The notes under the pieces: generated by a model
What the model was told of the DNA's origin: nothing
Databases searched by the model: none
What the model saw: only the letters and a program-made list of their open reading frames with translations
Program-made: the position numbers and the translations under genes
Shown here: positions 7,418 to 14,596 of the stretch, one piece after another
Numbering within the stretch: position 1 is the first letter of the stretch
How the letters are laid out: every line of letters begins with the position of its first letter
DNA from: Calditrichota bacterium
Lineage (GTDB): Bacteria > Calditrichota > Calditrichia > Calditrichales > J004
Reading direction: 5' to 3'
DNA length: 64,000 nucleotides
Assembly: GCA_024277115.1 (NCBI GenBank)
Contig: JAJRVW010000119.1
Span: 365 to 64,364 of the forward strand

Positions 7418-10400
7418 TTATTTTCTAAAATGTTTTTTTATAAATTCTTCAAGAGAAATGCTTTCTTCTCTCCAAACTTTTGAATTTACTCTAAAACGAA
7501 TATTTCTATCTTCTATATCAACTGATATTCCATCTTGTTCAAGCATTATTGAACTCTTTTTTTCTTCCATTTCTTCAAATTCTTTTAGTATAGTTGATAA
7601 ATTTTGGCCAATATGATCAACTATTTTAGCATTCTTTTTTACATAATCTTTATCTGGTTCTGTTCCATCAAGTTCAACAACAACAAGAGCATAATTTGAT
7701 TTTTTTTCGACTGCTGTTTCAGCTTGTAGTTGTGTCATAGCAGCATAATCTTTTCCCGTTGCTTTTAATTCAACCAACCAATTACCAATTTGAAATATTT
7801 CTTCTGTTTTATTTTTATCTACTAAATCCGAAGAATCTTCTGTTAATATATAATCACTTCCGAAAGGTTTTCTTTCAATGTTGATATTTACACCTTCTGA
7901 TTTTAACTCTTCAATGATTTCACGGAATAAATTTTCAATTAATGCTCCTATTTGTTGATTTCTATTTATCAACTTCCTTTCATTTAATCTTTTTTCATAT
8001 TCTTTTTGGATATTTGGGTCTTTAAAAATTTCTTCTACTAATTCAGGGTCAACATTGCTTGTTATCATATTTGTTAATGCTTTATCCCATTTAATCCTTT
8101 CTTCATCAGATGATAATGTGTTGCGAATTAAATCAGAAACGCCAACACCTATTTGTGTTAAAAAATTAATTTGAGCTTCACCCTTAATTGTTGAAATAAT
8201 TTCTTCTTTATCTTTTAATAACTCTGACAAGTTTTTGGAGGAAGGTCTTTCTGAAATAAATTTCTTTTCATTTGATTCATCAATATTTATTGTATTAACC
8301 CAAAGAACATTTTTTGCCCTTTTTAACCATAAACTTTCATCAAATAGTATCTTTTTCCCATTTATTTCCTTTTCTTCAACTGATTGAAAGAAATTATCTT
8401 TAATGGTTGCTTCATTTAGTAAAAAATTTAGAATTTTGAGACTAAATGCTGATGTTGTATTTCTTGAATAAATATGACCGTCAGTTGCAGTAAGATATGC
8501 AAAATCGCTGTATTCAAACTCTATTTCTTCAATTAAACTACCATCATCATTTTTTATAAAGTTTGAGTCTTCTGAATTATGAATAAGTAAATCAATATCT
8601 TTTATGTTTATTTTCTCTTTTCTAATTACAAGCGGCATATAATGGATAAAGCCCATTTCGGATAACTTTTTAAACATGTCATCATTTAAAACTTCATTAT
8701 AAACAGTGTGTAAACAGTCTCGCTCCCTAATCAAATTTGCATAAAGCGGAAATTGTATTTTAAAAAAATTAATTGGTGAAAGTAACAAATGACGCCCATC
8801 AGGGAAAGTCCTCTTTATTACTTCATCATTTGAACCTTTTGATATAATCTTCAAATCTTTAATAATTTCAGGCAAGTTTTCTTGAATTAACCATAATAAA
8901 AATTCCGCATTAGCCTTTATTATATCTTTATTACTTAAAAATTCTAATTCTTTGAAATCGTTTAATTTATCTTTTATCTTTGATATAGCTTTATCCCTTG
9001 TATATTCATCGATACCATTTATTTTTATTTTCGAAATATTTGAGTTTATTAAAATTTCTCTTAAATCATCATTTATATTTTTTGATATATCTTTTAGTTT
9101 TTCCGGTACGTCATTATCCCAATAAATATTAAGTTTATCTTTGAAAATACTATTTTGGTTTAAAATAATTCTTTTATTAGAAGGAAATTCTTCTAAATCA
9201 ATAAGAATAAGTTTGTATAAATCGTCTAACCATAAATGTACATTCTCAATTTTTTTGTTTATATCATCAAATCTTTCGTGTTCTTCAACAAAACTTATTA
9301 AGCCTTTTGTGCCTATAATGTTTTCAAATCCAAAAATATCTTTGTCATAAATTTTAGATATATTTTTAAAAATGTGTTGCCAATATGTGAGGTTGCTTTT
9401 TTTAATTAAATTAAAAAAAATTATTTTTTCTAATAAATCATATAGTTTTTCAGAATGTTCATAATCATATAAGTATGGTATTATTAAATTTTTGAAAGCA
9501 ACTTTATTGTTTTACTATCTATAATTGACTGTTCTTTTAAGTTATCGAATAATTCTCGTTTTAAATTATTAAACCATTCATTATCAATCCATGAGTATTG
9601 TTTTGATACAGTAAAATTAAATAACTCAAATGAATTGTTAATTTGTTTAGTTATAATAAAATCTGGAAATATTTCAACTGCTTTACTTAAAGCGTTTGAT
9701 ATTATTTCTTTATTTCTTTCAACTCCATTTATTTCATTATTATCAGTAACTAAATATATACCATCTCTTTCAATTCTTGGGTCAAAGAAAGTCGAATTTA
9801 TTATAAAAGGAATACCAAATTCTTCTGTACCAATTAAAGGAAATGTAAAGAATAATTTAGGGTAGTTTTTAAGATTTATTAAACTTTCAGTATTTCCATT
9901 TATTTCTGATAGAATGCAAATCTCATATTCTTCTTCTTTTATCAAATAAGCCTTTATTTTTTGTTCACTTGCATCATCTTTTTTAGTTAACTCCCATTCT
10001 TCAACAAAACTATCTTTTTCTGTATGTTTTTGTATTAAATGCTTCTCAAAAAGAACATTCTTGTCAGAAAGCATGGAAATGTTATTTATTTGGTCATTAA
10101 ATATCTGTACTATTGGTATTAAGTTGTTTAAGCTTTTTAGTCCCTTATTTGCAGTGTTTTCACCATGCTCATTTAACACATATTTAAATTGGGTTTGAAA
10201 ATTATTATTTCCTAGATAACTCGTTTCTTTAATCGAATTAATAAAGTTTTCCTTTGATTCTTTTTGAAATTGAAAAAATTCTTTAATATCCTTTCCGTCT
10301 CTGTTAAGTAGAAATTGGAAAAAGCCATCATTTTCAGTTAAACGACCAGAAATTTCAACTTTTTTTGAAAGCAAATAAGTCGTCATAAAGCCAGTTCCAA

Positions 10401-10710
10401 ATCTTCCGGTTTTATCTTCTTTTTCTGTTTTTGTTGAACCTTGAAAAATAAGACTTAAAATTTCATCTAATTCAAAAGGCAGTCCAGTGTGTGAAAATAT
10501 TATTTCTTTTTCCTTTTTTGTTAACTTTACATCAATCTTTTCTCCGCTATTAATAGAATCTTTGGCATTTTGTAATAATTCCCAAAACCATCTTTCTTCG
10601 TAAATAGTTCTTTCTTTTTCTCTTGCTTGGATATCTCGGTACACACCACCAGCATGTCATTCTTCTGCTATTTCTCCACTTCTTTTTTCTATTTTACTTT
10701 TATTAATCAT
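7418..10710 (-). pseudogene. Sacsin-like GHKL ATPase with C-terminal PD-(D/E)xK-like (DUF3883/NOV-type) domain, about 1097 aa when reconstructed; in-frame TGA at 10657-10659 and -1 frameshift near 9510
   Basis: RWFWELLQNAKD and GRFGTGF GHKL motifs; C-terminal GSDY...VELKAT; the 7418..8875 frame stays open up to about 9510; ATG at 10710 reads MINKSKIEKRSGEIAEE*HAGGVYRDIQ. Confidence 0.8.
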
Positions 10711-12917: not shown

Positions 12918-13420
12918 TTTTGGCCGGCATTTTTGATATATATGAGCAATCGAATAGAAATAGATTATCTTTAAACTATTAATCAATCAGCTAAAATAGT
13001 TCTCAATTTTGGTTTTATGTAATTTAGCGTAGGTGATTAAATTGAGTCCTTAATCATACTCATACTCGCTTTTTAGTTTTAAAATATTGAATAAGTAAAC
13101 TTTTAGTTGTATACCTAATAGATTTATAAAGTTTTTCGTTGGTATGCTTTGTTTTTCCTTTTTGAAAGTTATGTAAAAGCGAGTCCCAATTAAAATCATC
13201 GAGGATTTTAAATAAGAGTAAGATAAAGATTATGAGAAAGAATTAAATACCTAAAAAATTGGTACTATTTATTAAATACAAAACTATATCTACACTATTC
13301 CATATCGAGGCGACAAAAAACATATATCCTCCAAAACTAAAAAAACCGGTAAAAAATTACCGGGCTCAGTATGCCGATTATCTAAAATAAGGTAAAAGAA
13401 TCGCGCATGGCTTTCAGCTC

Positions 13421-13477
13421 AGTCCCAAGGGGATTTGAACCCCTGTCGTCCACGATGGAATCGGGATATCCTAGACC
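13421..13477 (-). pseudogene. tRNA-Glu-derived fragment, copy 2 (D-arm 3' part to acceptor 3' strand, remodelled anticodon arm)
   Basis: 28 nt identical to the 3' end of tRNA-Glu; loop ATTCCAT; no 5' acceptor strand. Confidence 0.8.
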
Positions 13478-13725
13478 TCCTCCAAGCCAAAAGTTTTCAA
13501 GGTTTGAATTCTGCTTTTTAGTTTCTTAATTCTTTTTTCTTCTTTCATGGCTTCGGCTCGTGTATTGAATGATTTGTAAGCAAGAAGTTTCCATGGCATA
13601 CGTTGTTTTGTGTATGTACATCGTCCTTGGTTATGATAATTATTGACCCTTTCTTGAACGTCATTGGTCTGCCCAACATAATAGGTGCCAAACTTTATCG
13701 ACTCGATGAGATAGACATAAAACAT
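13471..13725 (-). CDS. GIY-YIG nuclease family protein, 84 aa, copy 2
   Basis: FYVYLI...YYVGQT..ER...HN...YTK..PWKL...A...EKRIK; GGAGA RBS before ATG at 13725. Confidence 0.9.
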   Translation of the reverse strand: MFYVYLIESIKFGTYYVGQTNDVQERVNNYHNQGRCTYTKQRMPWKLLAYKSFNTRAEAMKEEKRIKKLKSRIQTLKTFGLEEV

Positions 13726-13824
13726 GAAAGTCTCCAAAACTAAAAAAGCCCGGTAAAAAATTACCGGGCTCAGTATGCCGATTCTCTAAAGTCGGGCAAA
13801 TGAATCGTGCATGGCTTTCAGCTC

Positions 13825-13881
13825 AGTCCCAAGGGGATTTGAACCCCTGTCGTCCACGATGAAATCGGGATGTCCTAGACC
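13825..13881 (-). pseudogene. tRNA-Glu-derived fragment, copy 1
   Basis: GGTCTAGGACA-TCCCGATTTCATCGTGGA-CGACAGGGGTTCAAATCCCCTTGGGACT versus the tRNA-Glu gene. Confidence 0.8.
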
Positions 13882-14129
13882 TCTTCCAAGCCAAATGCTT
13901 TCAAAGTTTGAATTCTGCTTTTCAGTTTCTTAATTTTTTTTTCTTCTTTCATGGCTTCGGCTCGTGTATTGAATGATTTGTAAGCAAGAAGTTTCCATGG
14001 CATACGTTGTTTAGTGTATGTGCACCGCCCATGGTTATGATAGTTATTGATCCTTTCCTGAACATCATTGGTTTGGCCAACATAATAGGTGCCAAACTTT
14101 ATCGACTCAATGAGATAGACATAAAACAT
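13875..14129 (-). CDS. GIY-YIG nuclease family protein, 84 aa, copy 1
   Basis: Same motifs, 4 aa differences from copy 2; real start ATG 14129, not 14327. Confidence 0.9.
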   Translation of the reverse strand: MFYVYLIESIKFGTYYVGQTNDVQERINNYHNHGRCTYTKQRMPWKLLAYKSFNTRAEAMKEEKKIKKLKSRIQTLKAFGLEEV

Positions 14130-14145
14130 GAAAGTCTCCAAAACT

Positions 14146-14174
14146 AAAAAAGCCCGGTAAAAAATTACCGGGCT
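14146..14174 (-). terminator. tRNA operon terminator (repeated at 13742-13770 and 13339-13366)
   Basis: AGCCCGGTAATTTTTTACCGGGCT followed by a T-run. Confidence 0.8.
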
Positions 14175-14177
14175 CAG

Positions 14178-14250
14178 TAGTCCCAAGGGGATTTGAACCC
14201 CTGTCGCCGCCGTGAAAGGGCGGTGTCCTAGACCCCTAGACGATGGGACC
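14178..14250 (-). tRNA. tRNA-Glu(TTC)
   Basis: Cloverleaf GGTCCCA...CCGCC CTTTCAC GGCGG...GGTTCAAATCC...TGGGACTA; CCA not encoded. Confidence 0.95.
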
Positions 14251-14285
14251 GTAAATCTTTTAATTTCTATTTTCACCTTACTAAG

Positions 14286-14360
14286 GGTGAGTGATGGGAA
14301 TTGAACCCACGACCCCCAGAGCCACAATCTGGTGCTCTAACCAACTGAGCTACACCCACC
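14286..14360 (-). tRNA. tRNA-His(GTG)
   Basis: G-1, GTGGGTG/CACTCAC acceptor, CCAGA TTGTGGC TCTGG anticodon arm. Confidence 0.95.
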
Positions 14361-14373
14361 ATAAACATTGTTG

Positions 14374-14447
<74 letters not shown>

Positions 14448-14464
14448 TTATGCCCAAATCAAAG

Positions 14465-14539
14465 TCGGGGTGAGAGGATTCGAACCTCCGACCCCCTGCT
14501 CCCAAGGCAGGTGCGCTAACCGGGCTGCGCTACACCCCG
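14465..14539 (-). tRNA. tRNA-Pro(TGG)
   Basis: CGGGGTG...CCTGC CTTGGGA GCAGG...GGTTCGAATCC. Confidence 0.95.
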
Positions 14540-14567: not shown

Positions 14568-14596
14568 AATATAACTATATCAACTTCTTATGTCAA
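14568..14596 (-). promoter_or_regulatory. Sigma70 promoter of the tRNA operon
   Basis: TTGACA (14596-14591), 17-nt spacer, TATATT (14573-14568). Confidence 0.75.

What the first reader, a model, noticed from the sequence alone, without database searches (positions are those of the whole stretch)
13329..14250. tRNA-Glu-anchored tandem array of minimal GIY-YIG genes that regenerates a tRNA fragment with every unit
Seen: directly 3' of tRNA-Glu(TTC) are two 404-bp units. Each is [tRNA terminator, GGAGA RBS, 84-aa GIY-YIG ORF, tRNA-Glu-like fragment, 50-nt insert], and a third terminator/RBS stub ends the array at about 13329. The GIY-YIG stop codon (TAG) lies inside the copied tRNA D-arm sequence GGTCTAGGA, so gene and tRNA copy are fused. 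The two genes differ at 4 aa and at several synonymous sites, which suggests conserved function rather than an assembly echo. No integrase, transposase or reverse transcriptase is nearby. Known: GIY-YIG domains serve as homing and mobility endonucleases, and tRNA 3' ends are integration hot spots. Inference: a minimal nuclease-only selfish element that cuts at or near the tRNA gene and amplifies by recombinational repair, or a nuclease paired with a tRNA-mimic RNA (decoy or antitoxin-like).
Basis: partly seen in the sequence, partly recalled or inferred. Interest (0 to 1): 0.82.

Follow-up and report, generated by a model that had tools for sequence, protein, structure and literature searches.

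The report
tRNA-embedded mini GIY-YIG nuclease cassette array
Right after an essential tRNA-Glu gene sit two and a bit tandem copies of a tiny nuclease gene, each ending inside a crippled copy of that tRNA, and the same arrangement recurs next to many tRNA genes in many bacteria, so it looks like an undescribed family of tRNA-hitchhiking genetic cassettes.

Summary
There are 2.1 units of 404 bp. Each unit holds a terminator, an 84-aa GIY-YIG ORF, a tRNA-Glu-like piece that contains the ORF's stop codon, and a 52-nt insert.

The array is one case of a widespread pattern. In 92 family hits from two protein-search samples, most lie within 150 nt downstream of a tRNA gene, inside an array, or read into a tRNA. 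Arrays of 2-5 units recur, and protein clades follow the linked tRNA type.

Each ORF is followed or preceded by a pseudo-tRNA ("tRNA*"). Its 3' part and terminator copy the neighbouring real tRNA. Its anticodon arm is replaced by a conserved TCCCG-loop-CGGGA hairpin.

At the orthologous tRNA-Glu locus of 30 relatives the cassette is present in 10, decayed in 5, absent in 12 and undetermined in 3.

Both window copies are under purifying selection (omega 0.06). No integrase lies nearby.

My best reading, at confidence 0.5, is a tRNA-type-specific, nuclease-only selfish cassette. It would be kept and amplified by recombination between the tRNA and tRNA*, as phage SegB amplifies tRNA loci. Nuclease targets are untested. 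Ten literature searches found no description of this.

The parts
14568..14596 (-). promoter-like site upstream of the tRNA operon (TTGACA-17-TATATT)
   Evidence: 11 of 12 consensus matches. It is the only strong match upstream of the tRNAs, and no comparable site lies between any terminator and a GIY ORF.
14285..14539 (-). tRNA-Pro(TGG), tRNA-Arg(TCT) and tRNA-His(GTG), the upstream members of the tRNA operon
   Evidence: Rfam tRNA 67.7-74.5 bits. The cluster is conserved in 41 of 41 relatives.
14177..14250 (-). real tRNA-Glu(TTC), the only tRNA-Glu(TTC) among 40 tRNA genes found in the genome
   Evidence: 61.4 bits; tRNA census of G000.
14150..14175 (-). intrinsic terminator 1 (11-bp stem plus T run), followed by GGAGA and the ORF1 start
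13875..14129 (-). mini GIY-YIG ORF 1 (84 aa, Slx1-like/UPF0213 type)
   Evidence: PF01541, E 1.4e-15; PDB 1zg2, E 1.9e-9; 1ywl, E 1.5e-6; family-invariant Y5, Y16, G18, R26, H31, E63 are present.
13825..13881 (-). pseudo-tRNA-Glu (tRNA*) 1, running from the D-loop to the 3' acceptor; it contains the ORF1 stop codon
   Evidence: tRNA positions 45-72 and 17-27 are repeated at 100% identity.
13853..13870 (-). signature hairpin replacing the anticodon arm (TCCCGAT-TTC-ATCG(T)GGA; 7 bp with one bulge)
   Evidence: fold; the same core hairpin in 92 places in related loci.
13773..13824 (-). 52-nt insert between tRNA* and the next terminator; it forms its own hairpin and is unique to this array
   Evidence: and (no other copy in the genome).
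13746..13771 (-). terminator 2, identical to terminator 1
   Evidence: There are no differences in the first 67 nt of the unit.
13471..13725 (-). mini GIY-YIG ORF 2 (84 aa, 4 amino-acid differences from ORF 1)
   Evidence: E 1.9e-15; 14 synonymous and 4 non-synonymous differences; omega 0.057.
13421..13477 (-). pseudo-tRNA-Glu (tRNA*) 2, with hairpin at 13449-13466 and loop TCC
13369..13420 (-). 52-nt insert, copy 2 (88% identical to copy 1)
13312..13368 (-). stub: third terminator (13346-13363), RBS and the decayed first codons of a third ORF
   Evidence: (59 nt, 88% identity to the unit start).

Best explanation
The locus is a tandem array of a tRNA-embedded mini-GIY-YIG cassette. This is a widespread, tRNA-type-specific family of nuclease-only genetic elements.

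One unit is a roughly 80-100-aa Slx1-like (UPF0213) GIY-YIG ORF plus a pseudo-tRNA, here called tRNA*.
- The ORF has no stop codon of its own and reads into tRNA*, usually stopping at the D-loop TAG.
- The 3' part of tRNA* and its terminator copy the adjacent real tRNA.
- The anticodon arm of tRNA* is replaced by a conserved TCCCG-loop-CGGGA hairpin.

The cassette sits inside the transcription unit of an essential, highly conserved tRNA. In this window it can be expressed only by read-through of the tRNA terminator.

Inferred mechanism. The real tRNA and tRNA* act as built-in homology arms.
- Recombination between them (unequal crossover, gene conversion, loop-out and Campbell-type re-integration) would create, homogenise, expand, shrink and precisely delete the array.
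- The same recombination would let the cassette enter a cognate tRNA gene whatever the flanking DNA.
- The structure-specific nuclease presumably supplies the recombinogenic nick or break at the tRNA gene or at the hairpin. Phage SegB drives tandem amplification of tRNA-segB units in a comparable way.

Shown here: the anatomy, the family-wide tRNA linkage, the arrays, gain/loss/decay, purifying selection, and concerted evolution of tRNA and tRNA*.
Inferred only: nuclease activity, its target, the direction of transfer, and selfishness.
For: 1. tRNA linkage.
- In the relatives-plus-own sample, 35 family hits had at least 200 nt of upstream sequence. Of these, 16 have a real same-strand tRNA ending within 150 nt upstream, 10 are array-internal, 1 has a tRNA at its stop, and 8 have none. 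Six of those 8 carry the hairpin or a tRNA 170-210 nt upstream.
- In a phylogenetically diverse sample of 43 hits the split is 20, 8, 1 and 14.
- In 14 further loci, 10 have a real tRNA within 150 nt or overlapping the stop. Three more have a tRNA 3'-end-like piece plus terminator directly upstream, and one has a tRNA 399 nt upstream.
- The genome has only 40 tRNA genes in 4.97 Mb.

2. Arrays of 2-5 units recur. They are seen in G001, G002, G016, G019, G021 and G031 and in loci L038, L039, L041, L052, L055 and L109, including single-contig genomes.

3. Protein clades follow tRNA type. A tree of 66 proteins needs 29 label changes against a shuffled mean of 48.5; 0 of 200 shuffles were as low.

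4. tRNA positions from about 44 to the 3' end, plus the terminator, are repeated after the ORF at 93-100% identity in most class A loci. The G000-specific T-loop variant TTCAAAT is shared by tRNA and tRNA*, while the relatives' real tRNAs have TTCGAAT, except L104 with TTCGACT. This indicates gene conversion between the two.

5. The hairpin lies within -60 to +110 nt of the stop in 20 of 43 and 6 of 45 ORFs, against 27 of 5000 random genome windows. Its sixth base pair covaries: A-T 54, G-C 11, C-G 9, T-A 2.

6. Two mirror architectures exist. Either the real tRNA is upstream, or tRNA* is upstream and the ORF reads into the real tRNA (L039, L036, L037, L040, L027, L125). Crossovers on either side of the anticodon arm would give exactly these two forms.

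7. At the orthologous tRNA-Glu locus in 30 relatives there are 9 occupied plus 1 probable, 5 decayed or ORF-less remnants, 12 clean empty sites and 3 undetermined. Many hits carry internal stop codons.

8. Selection: omega is 0.057 between the window copies and 0.064 in L020. The catalytic residues are invariant in 26 aligned members.

9. No integrase, transposase or reverse transcriptase is nearby.

10. Experimental analogue: in T6 phage, 718-bp tRNA-Tyr-segB tandem repeats require SegB catalysis and UvsX/UvsY, and there is microhomology between the tRNA 5' end and the segB 3' end (PMC13096335, passages read).
Against: - No cleavage, transfer or excision event is observed, so everything mechanistic is inference.
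- G000 and G001 GIY proteins are 69% identical, similar to the flanking HDOD (77%) and Ham1 (65%) proteins. Synteny is also kept. This fits vertical inheritance with selection as well as it fits mobility.
- 48 of 56 genomes of the phylum carry at least one member. Such prevalence could mean a host function.
- The protein is only a catalytic domain and has no DNA-binding domain to give sequence specificity.
- The hairpin is not exclusive to the cassette and does not track GIY presence. Among five genomes without a GIY match, G010 has an ORF-less tRNA-Asp* array, G026 has the motif in a repeat without any tRNA, G047 has 3 and two have none. Among five GIY-rich genomes, two have none.
- The alphaproteobacterial/Verrucomicrobial clade is tRNA-adjacent but has no tRNA*.
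- Array decay shows no consistent polarity. Distal copies are decayed in the window, L020, L052 and L003, but proximal copies are decayed in L041 and G001.
- A break made in the real, single-copy tRNA-Glu gene would be dangerous to the host.
Confidence: 0.5

Rival explanations
1. A domesticated host gene. A small Slx1-like structure-specific nuclease is co-expressed with tRNA operons. It might process stalled forks or R-loops at highly transcribed tRNA genes, or act on tRNA itself. Under this view the arrays and tRNA* pieces are passive by-products of unequal crossover between short repeats.
For: - omega is 0.057 in both tandem copies.
- Divergence between congeners is like that of housekeeping neighbours.
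- 48 of 56 genomes of the phylum have at least one member.
- The family review reports a fusion of a prokaryotic Slx1-like domain to a TrmH-like tRNA methyltransferase, and a role for Slx1 in rDNA repeat maintenance (PMC1564403, passages read).
Against: - A trans-acting enzyme has no need to sit in cis at many different tRNA genes, with clades matching tRNA type.
- It also has no need to read into a pseudo-tRNA.
- Genomes hold 0-10 matches, many with internal stops.
- At the orthologous locus, 12 of 30 sites are empty and 5 of 30 are decayed.
- Passive duplication does not explain a conserved, covarying hairpin.
Confidence: 0.25
2. An RNA-level toxin-antidote pair. The GIY-YIG protein attacks its cognate tRNA or another nucleic acid. 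The tRNA* transcript, a tRNA body with a dead anticodon arm, acts as a pseudo-substrate antitoxin or decoy. The terminator sets the ratio, as in type III toxin-antitoxin loci (that architecture is recalled, not checked here).
For: - Protein clades are tRNA-type specific.
- The tRNA* body equals the cognate tRNA but its anticodon arm is replaced.
- Some tRNA* copies are nearly full length, in L020, L042 and L128.
- The layout is repeat, terminator, then ORF.
Against: - In the window and most loci tRNA* lacks the 5' acceptor strand, so no cloverleaf can form.
- Half-tRNA* arrays without an ORF lie behind terminators where little transcription is expected (G000 C99; L076; L132).
- As far as I recall, GIY-YIG enzymes are known as DNases.
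- Tandem toxin genes would be unusual.
Confidence: 0.1
3. Leftover attachment-site repeats of an integrase-borne island that once used the tRNA-Glu 3' end, with the GIY-YIG genes as cargo.
For: A direct repeat of the tRNA 3' part flanks the insert, as at tRNA-targeting islands.
Against: - No integrase is found in 10 flanking ORFs.
- The unit is only 404 bp.
- The same design recurs at many tRNAs and in many phyla without integrases being noted.
- The repeat includes the terminator and a replaced anticodon arm, which att hybrids do not explain.
Confidence: 0.02
4. An assembly artefact, that is, a repeat echo.
For: Many related hits lie at contig ends.
Against: - The units differ at 27 of 404 positions in a coding-like pattern.
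- Arrays are present in single-contig genomes.
Confidence: 0.01

Closest known systems
Phage T-even SegB: a free-standing GIY-YIG homing endonuclease in tRNA gene clusters that drives tandem amplification of tRNA-segB units (PMC13096335; passages read)
   Same: - It is a GIY-YIG nuclease gene embedded among tRNA genes.
- The tandem repeat unit is a tRNA plus the nuclease gene.
- There is homology between the tRNA and the 3' end of the nuclease gene.
- Amplification depends on homologous recombination.
- The nuclease gene is statistically co-located with tRNAs.
   Different: - SegB is a phage protein with a DNA-binding part and belongs to the homing-endonuclease/UvrC branch.
- The window protein is an 84-aa catalytic domain of the Slx1-like/UPF0213 branch.
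- It sits on bacterial chromosomes; only 4 weak matches were found in 50,697 phage records.
- The repeated tRNA is a disabled pseudo-tRNA with a signature hairpin, and clades are tRNA-type specific.
- The SegB survey covered virus proteins only.
Bacterial Slx1-like minimal GIY-YIG proteins (UPF0213/COG2827; PDB 1zg2 BH0048 and 1ywl EF2693)
   Same: The fold, size and motif set match. These are the best solved-structure matches, at E 1.9e-9 and 1.5e-6. The family is described as the minimal stand-alone GIY-YIG domain predicted to act in repair (PMC1564403).
   Different: In the passages read, that review does not mention linkage to tRNA genes, arrays or pseudo-tRNAs. Its 3 occurrences of 'tRNA' include the TrmH fusion, but not every occurrence was viewed. 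Function is untested in either case.
Integrase-mediated genomic islands and prophages at tRNA genes
   Same: The insert lies directly 3' of a tRNA, the tRNA 3' part is duplicated at the far end, and the real tRNA stays intact.
   Different: There is no integrase. The unit is only 300-400 bp. The repeat extends through the terminator. The anticodon arm of the copy is replaced by a conserved hairpin. Units are tandem.
REP elements with RAYT transposases, and type III toxin-antitoxin loci such as ToxIN (both architectures recalled, not tested)
   Same: Small conserved hairpins or tandem RNA-like repeats are linked to a single small enzyme gene. ToxIN also has a terminator between the repeats and the ORF.
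   Different: The enzyme folds differ. The hairpin here sits inside tRNA copies next to tRNA genes rather than being dispersed genome-wide. tRNA* is usually incomplete.

Membership tests
GIY-YIG nuclease superfamily (Pfam PF01541) | Profile match above the curated cut-off | tested here: met
   57.7 and 57.3 bits against a cut-off of 22.6; E 1.4e-15 and 1.9e-15.
GIY-YIG nuclease superfamily (Pfam PF01541) | Catalytic motif residues: Tyr of GIY, Tyr/Gly of YIG, Arg, and the metal-binding Glu | tested here: met
   Y5, Y16, G18, R26, H31 and E63 are invariant in 26 aligned members, including both window copies. Assigning these residues to catalytic roles is from recall.
Bacterial Slx1-like / UPF0213 (COG2827) minimal GIY-YIG | Stand-alone catalytic domain of about 80-110 aa without auxiliary domains, closest to UPF0213 structures | tested here: met
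   The protein is 84 aa. Only PDB 1zg2 and 1ywl (UPF0213) match. The family description comes from PMC1564403.
Bacterial Slx1-like / UPF0213 (COG2827) minimal GIY-YIG | Structure-specific endonuclease activity | not testable with these tools
   Needs biochemistry.
Free-standing homing endonuclease gene (Seg-like) | A sequence-specific DNA-binding domain joined to the nuclease domain | tested here: not met
   The whole 84-aa protein is covered by the catalytic domain, residues 1-72 of 84. NCBIfam group I intron endonuclease TIGR01453 scores only 17.8 bits against a cut-off of 56.
Free-standing homing endonuclease gene (Seg-like) | Cleaves the element-free allele and is copied into it by repair; patchy presence at a conserved site | tested here: inconclusive
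   Patchy presence is shown: 10 occupied, 5 decayed and 12 empty of 30. Cleavage and transfer are not testable here.
Integrase-mediated tRNA-targeting island | A tyrosine or serine integrase gene next to the tRNA | tested here: not met
   ten flanking ORFs give EamA, HDOD, Ham1, sigma-70, YjeF, NAD synthase, TP methylase, thymidylate kinase and two without a Pfam match. None is an integrase.
Type III toxin-antitoxin (ToxIN-like) | A tandem RNA antitoxin repeat, then a terminator, then a ToxN/AbiQ-fold endoribonuclease | tested here: not met
   The ORF is GIY-YIG, not ToxN, and the repeats follow the ORF here. Only the terminator-before-ORF layout resembles ToxIN.

The most novel reading that the evidence does not exclude
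This would be a previously undescribed class of minimal mobile element.

- It is a roughly 300-400-bp cassette whose only cis requirement is a pseudo-tRNA. That pseudo-tRNA supplies portable homology arms to any cognate tRNA gene.
- Its domain-only Slx1-like nuclease recognises the conserved TCCCG hairpin or cruciform, or the tRNA gene's own stem-loops, and so triggers recombination, amplification and transfer.
- The ORF-less hairpin-tRNA* arrays would be its non-autonomous derivatives.
- The cassette would parasitise the transcription units of essential tRNAs. In the Ser type, the ORF could even be released as a leaderless mRNA by tRNA 3' processing.
Probability: 0.3. Interest if true: 0.9.

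Novelty: new variant of a known kind. Interest (0 to 1): 0.78.

Why it matters
- If confirmed, a very common and unstudied bacterial protein family (UPF0213/Slx1-like "GIY-YIG nuclease family protein") gains a concrete genomic context and a testable role.
- tRNA genes would then be targets not only of integrases but also of nuclease-only cassettes that carry a disabled copy of their target.
- It would be a chromosomal counterpart of the recently shown SegB-driven tRNA amplification in phages.
- It would explain a class of assembly breaks and pseudo-tRNA calls next to tRNA genes.
- It would offer a minimal nuclease-plus-hairpin pair for studying how an 80-aa enzyme finds its site.

Tried and rejected
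- **Public reads.** No RNA holder was listed. Only low-depth contigs of four metagenome runs could be laid, and none spans the array. Run X2 has a 434-nt contig covering one unit with 17 differences. That length fits a collapsed 404-bp cycle but proves nothing. I therefore make no statement on expression or copy number in reads.
- **Rfam.** Apart from the four tRNAs, nothing reaches a gathering score. tRNA* is not a known RNA family.
- **Hairpin versus GIY co-occurrence.** The narrow pattern TCCCGAT-N2-6-ATCGGGA occurs in 3 of 5 genomes without a GIY match and in 3 of 5 GIY-rich genomes. This gives no support for trans-mobilisation. One hit lies in coding DNA and two lie in a repeat without a tRNA.
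- **Polarity of decay in arrays.** It is inconsistent, with four arrays decayed distally and two proximally.
- **Phage carriers.** Only 4 weak partial matches were found, all in Listeria phage records.
- **Distal spacer 12987-13311.** There is no further unit remnant, and the 52-nt insert has no other copy in the genome.
- **Integrase island and assembly echo.** Both were rejected (see rivals).
- **Literature.** Ten searches found no paper describing bacterial tRNA-linked mini GIY-YIG cassettes, their arrays or the hairpin pseudo-tRNA. Subscription journals and supplementary files were not visible. The supplementary data of PMC13096335 in particular could hold relevant neighbours.
- **Steps not taken.** Complex prediction, structure prediction and the search of protein representatives were not used, because no claim here rests on them.
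- **First submission.** It was returned for a formatting fault (an unclosed field). The same report was sent again with the field closed and the confidence value added.
Full report
**What is in the window**

All features are on the minus strand. A promoter-like site at 14596-14568 matches 11 of 12 consensus positions. It precedes tRNA-Pro, -Arg, -His and -Glu(TTC) at 14539-14177.

Directly after tRNA-Glu comes an 11-bp-stem terminator, then GGAGA, then an 84-aa ORF. Tandem Repeats Finder reports 13329-14179 as 2.1 copies of a 404-bp unit at 93% identity. Both ORFs match Pfam GIY-YIG at E about 1e-15.

Each ORF ends at a TAG inside GGTCTAG, which is the D-loop motif of the real tRNA-Glu. After it comes a 57-nt tRNA-Glu-like piece, a 52-nt insert that folds on its own and is unique in the genome, and the next terminator.

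The array ends in a stub made of a third terminator, an RBS and the first dozen bases of a decayed third ORF. Ten flanking ORFs encode housekeeping-type proteins, and none is an integrase, transposase or reverse transcriptase.

**The copies are real and selected**

The units differ at 27 of 404 positions. None of these lie in the first 67 nt (terminator, RBS, ORF start) or in the T-arm/acceptor part of the tRNA copy. Eighteen lie in the ORF: 14 synonymous and 4 non-synonymous, giving dS 0.35 and omega 0.057. This is not an assembly echo, and both copies have been kept functional.

The tRNA-Glu of this genome has a private T-loop variant, TTCAAAT. The relatives have TTCGAAT, except L104 with TTCGACT. 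The pseudo-copies share the private variant. So the real tRNA and its copies exchange sequence, yet the anticodon arm stays different.

**It is one case of a family-wide pattern**

In the window's own genome another member follows tRNA-Pro(CGG) and reads into a tRNA-Pro-like copy (L003). A third begins after tRNA-Val(TAC) at a contig end (L138).

Among 41 related genomes, 34 have a match at E<=1e-5, with many tandem pairs or triplets and many hits at contig ends. ARAGORN finds tRNAs in 21 of 29 loci. In the other 8 the locus is cut by a contig end no more than 167 nt upstream of the ORF.

Counting family hits that have at least 200 nt of upstream sequence gives:

| Sample | Hits | Real tRNA within 150 nt upstream | Array-internal | tRNA at the stop | None |
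|---|---|---|---|---|---|
| Relatives plus own | 35 | 16 | 10 | 1 | 8 |
| Diverse phyla | 43 | 20 | 8 | 1 | 14 |

Six of the 8 "none" cases in the first sample have a hairpin or a tRNA 170-210 nt upstream. The other two are distant paralogues. The diverse sample covers Ignavibacteriota, Bacteroidota, candidate phyla, Proteobacteria, Verrucomicrobiota and Chloroflexota, and its 14 "none" cases are mostly the weakest matches.

A profile search found at least one match in 48 of 56 genomes of the phylum that are at least 90% complete. Of 14 new loci, 10 have a real tRNA within 150 nt upstream or overlapping the stop. Three show a tRNA 3' fragment plus terminator directly upstream, and one has a tRNA 399 nt upstream. 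The genome has 40 tRNA genes in 4.97 Mb, so chance adjacency is negligible.

**The unit is the ORF plus a pseudo-tRNA with a signature hairpin**

After the ORF, tRNA positions from about 44 to the 3' end, plus the terminator, are repeated at 93-100% identity in most loci where the real tRNA lies upstream. Sometimes the 5' half is repeated too, so that the ORF's last codons are encoded by a tRNA 5' half (L020, L039).

The anticodon arm of the copy is replaced by TCCCG-loop-CGGGA. This holds for Glu, Val, Pro, Asp, Asn, Ala and Gly types. In some lineages a second such hairpin replaces the T-loop.

A strict version of the hairpin lies within -60 to +110 nt of the stop in 20 of 43 and 6 of 45 ORFs. 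The background is 27 of 5000 random genome windows. The pair inside the 5-bp core covaries: A-T 54, G-C 11, C-G 9, T-A 2, with about 11 non-pairs. The window's version has one bulged base.

Two mirror architectures exist:
- real tRNA, terminator, then repeated [ORF reading into tRNA*, terminator], as in the window;
- repeated [tRNA* 5' half plus hairpins, ORF], with the last ORF reading into the real tRNA (L039, L036, L037, L040, L027, L125).

ORF-less arrays of half-tRNA* units also occur. There are at least 8 units after tRNA-Leu(TAA) in the window's genome (L137). Three units lie upstream of tRNA-Glu in G019. Four lie after tRNA-Asp in G010, a genome without a GIY match.

**Specificity and turnover**

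A tree of 66 proteins groups them by the linked tRNA type. It needs 29 label changes against a shuffled mean of 48.5, and 0 of 200 shuffles were as low. Val, Glu, Asp, Asn, Pro(TGG) and Ser(CGA) each form largely coherent groups. An alphaproteobacterial clade is promiscuous and lacks tRNA*.

At the orthologous Pro-Arg-His-Glu cluster of 30 relatives the cassette is present in 9 plus 1 probable. It is reduced to ORF-less or decayed remnants in 5, cleanly absent in 12 and undetermined in 3. One relative has two complete tRNA-Glu genes, each followed by an ORF (L097). The congener G001 has at least 4-5 units split over two contigs. Many hits carry internal stops.

Against rapid turnover, G000 and G001 proteins are 69% identical, which is like the flanking HDOD (77%) and Ham1 (65%) proteins. 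Synteny is also kept.

**What the protein is**

Only two solved structures match: 1zg2 and 1ywl, both "UPF0213" proteins. These are the bacterial Slx1-like minimal GIY-YIG domains of the 2006 superfamily analysis. That analysis calls them predicted repair enzymes. It notes a TrmH-like fusion and the role of Slx1 in rDNA repeat maintenance. It does not mention tRNA-gene linkage in the passages I read (PMC1564403).

Y5, Y16, G18, R26, H31 and E63 are invariant in 26 members. There is no room for a DNA-binding domain.

**How it most likely works**

Shown: the anatomy and its recurrence.

Inferred: the real tRNA and tRNA* are direct repeats that flank the ORF. Recombination between them would account for several observations:
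- identical terminators and T arms;
- arrays and precise empty sites;
- both mirror architectures, through crossover on either side of the heterologous anticodon arm;
- the tRNA-type specificity of clades.

Because the homology arms are the tRNA itself, entry into a cognate tRNA gene would not need flanking homology.

Expression in the window must come from terminator read-through of a strong tRNA operon, because no promoter-like site lies between terminator and ORF. In Ser-type members the ATG follows the tRNA 3' end by 0-3 nt.

I take the nuclease to supply the recombinogenic lesion. The nearest experimental precedent is T6 phage. There, SegB catalysis plus UvsX/UvsY produce 718-bp tRNA-Tyr-segB tandem repeats, with microhomology between the tRNA 5' end and the segB 3' end (PMC13096335).

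What the conserved hairpin does is open. It could be the nuclease's site, a block that keeps the repeats from deleting the ORF, or an RNA-level signal. It does not co-occur cleanly with GIY genes.

**Rivals**

- A domesticated tRNA-operon nuclease is my second choice, at 0.25.
- A toxin plus tRNA-mimic pair is at 0.1. It is weakened because most tRNA* copies, including the window's, cannot form a cloverleaf.
- An integrase relic (0.02) and an assembly artefact (0.01) are nearly excluded.

**Novelty**

Ten full-text searches found nothing on this arrangement. The SegB study surveyed virus proteins only.

I file this as a new variant of a known kind: a nuclease-only selfish gene at tRNA loci. 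There is a 0.3 chance that it is a distinct class of mobile element.

Noticed in passing
L137 (G000:C99:13500-14700), minus strand, about 150-840 in locus coordinates: After the tRNA Gly-Cys-Leu(TAA) cluster there are at least 8 ORF-less tandem units of about 95 bp. Each is a terminator plus a tRNA-Leu 3' fragment whose T arm is replaced by a TCCCGA(T/C)..ATCGGGA hairpin.
   Followed up: partly
L138 (G000:C200:1-700), minus strand: A pseudo-tRNA-Val with the hairpin in place of the anticodon arm lies about 70 nt upstream of the real tRNA-Val(TAC). That tRNA is followed by a terminator and the start of another mini GIY-YIG ORF, which is cut by the contig end.
   Followed up: partly
L139 (G000:C176:8150-8650) and L140 (G000:C232:24850-25400): Solo pseudo-tRNA-Ala and pseudo-tRNA-Ser copies carrying the same hairpin lie about 100-120 nt upstream of the real tRNA-Ala(GGC) and tRNA-Ser(GGA). 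No ORF lies between them.
   Followed up: no
L023, L024, L028, L032, L128, L131 (ORF starts): In Ser-type members the ATG lies 0-3 nt after the tRNA-Ser 3' end, with no terminator or RBS. tRNA 3' processing could therefore release a leaderless mRNA.
   Followed up: no
L005 (about 1492-1797, minus orientation) and L006 (1489-1779): Two more distant small GIY-YIG paralogues in the same genome are not tRNA-linked. They are followed by a different palindromic repeat of the GTCATTC..GAATC kind.
   Followed up: no
L135 (G026:C113:3300-4700), about 600-880: A repeat array with (T/C)CCCGAT-AA-ATCGGG(A/G) hairpins flanked by GATTCTTC / TCAGAATG has no tRNA nearby. The hairpin core is therefore not exclusive to pseudo-tRNAs.
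   Followed up: partly
window 7418-8875 and 9484-10644 (minus strand): Two long ORFs (485 and 386 aa) have no Pfam match at E<=1e-5.
   Followed up: no
L097 (G008:C160:1-2609): Two complete tRNA-Glu(TTC) genes are each followed by a GIY ORF, and a full-length pseudo-tRNA-Glu with the hairpin is also present. This is a duplication in which the tRNA stayed intact.
   Followed up: partly
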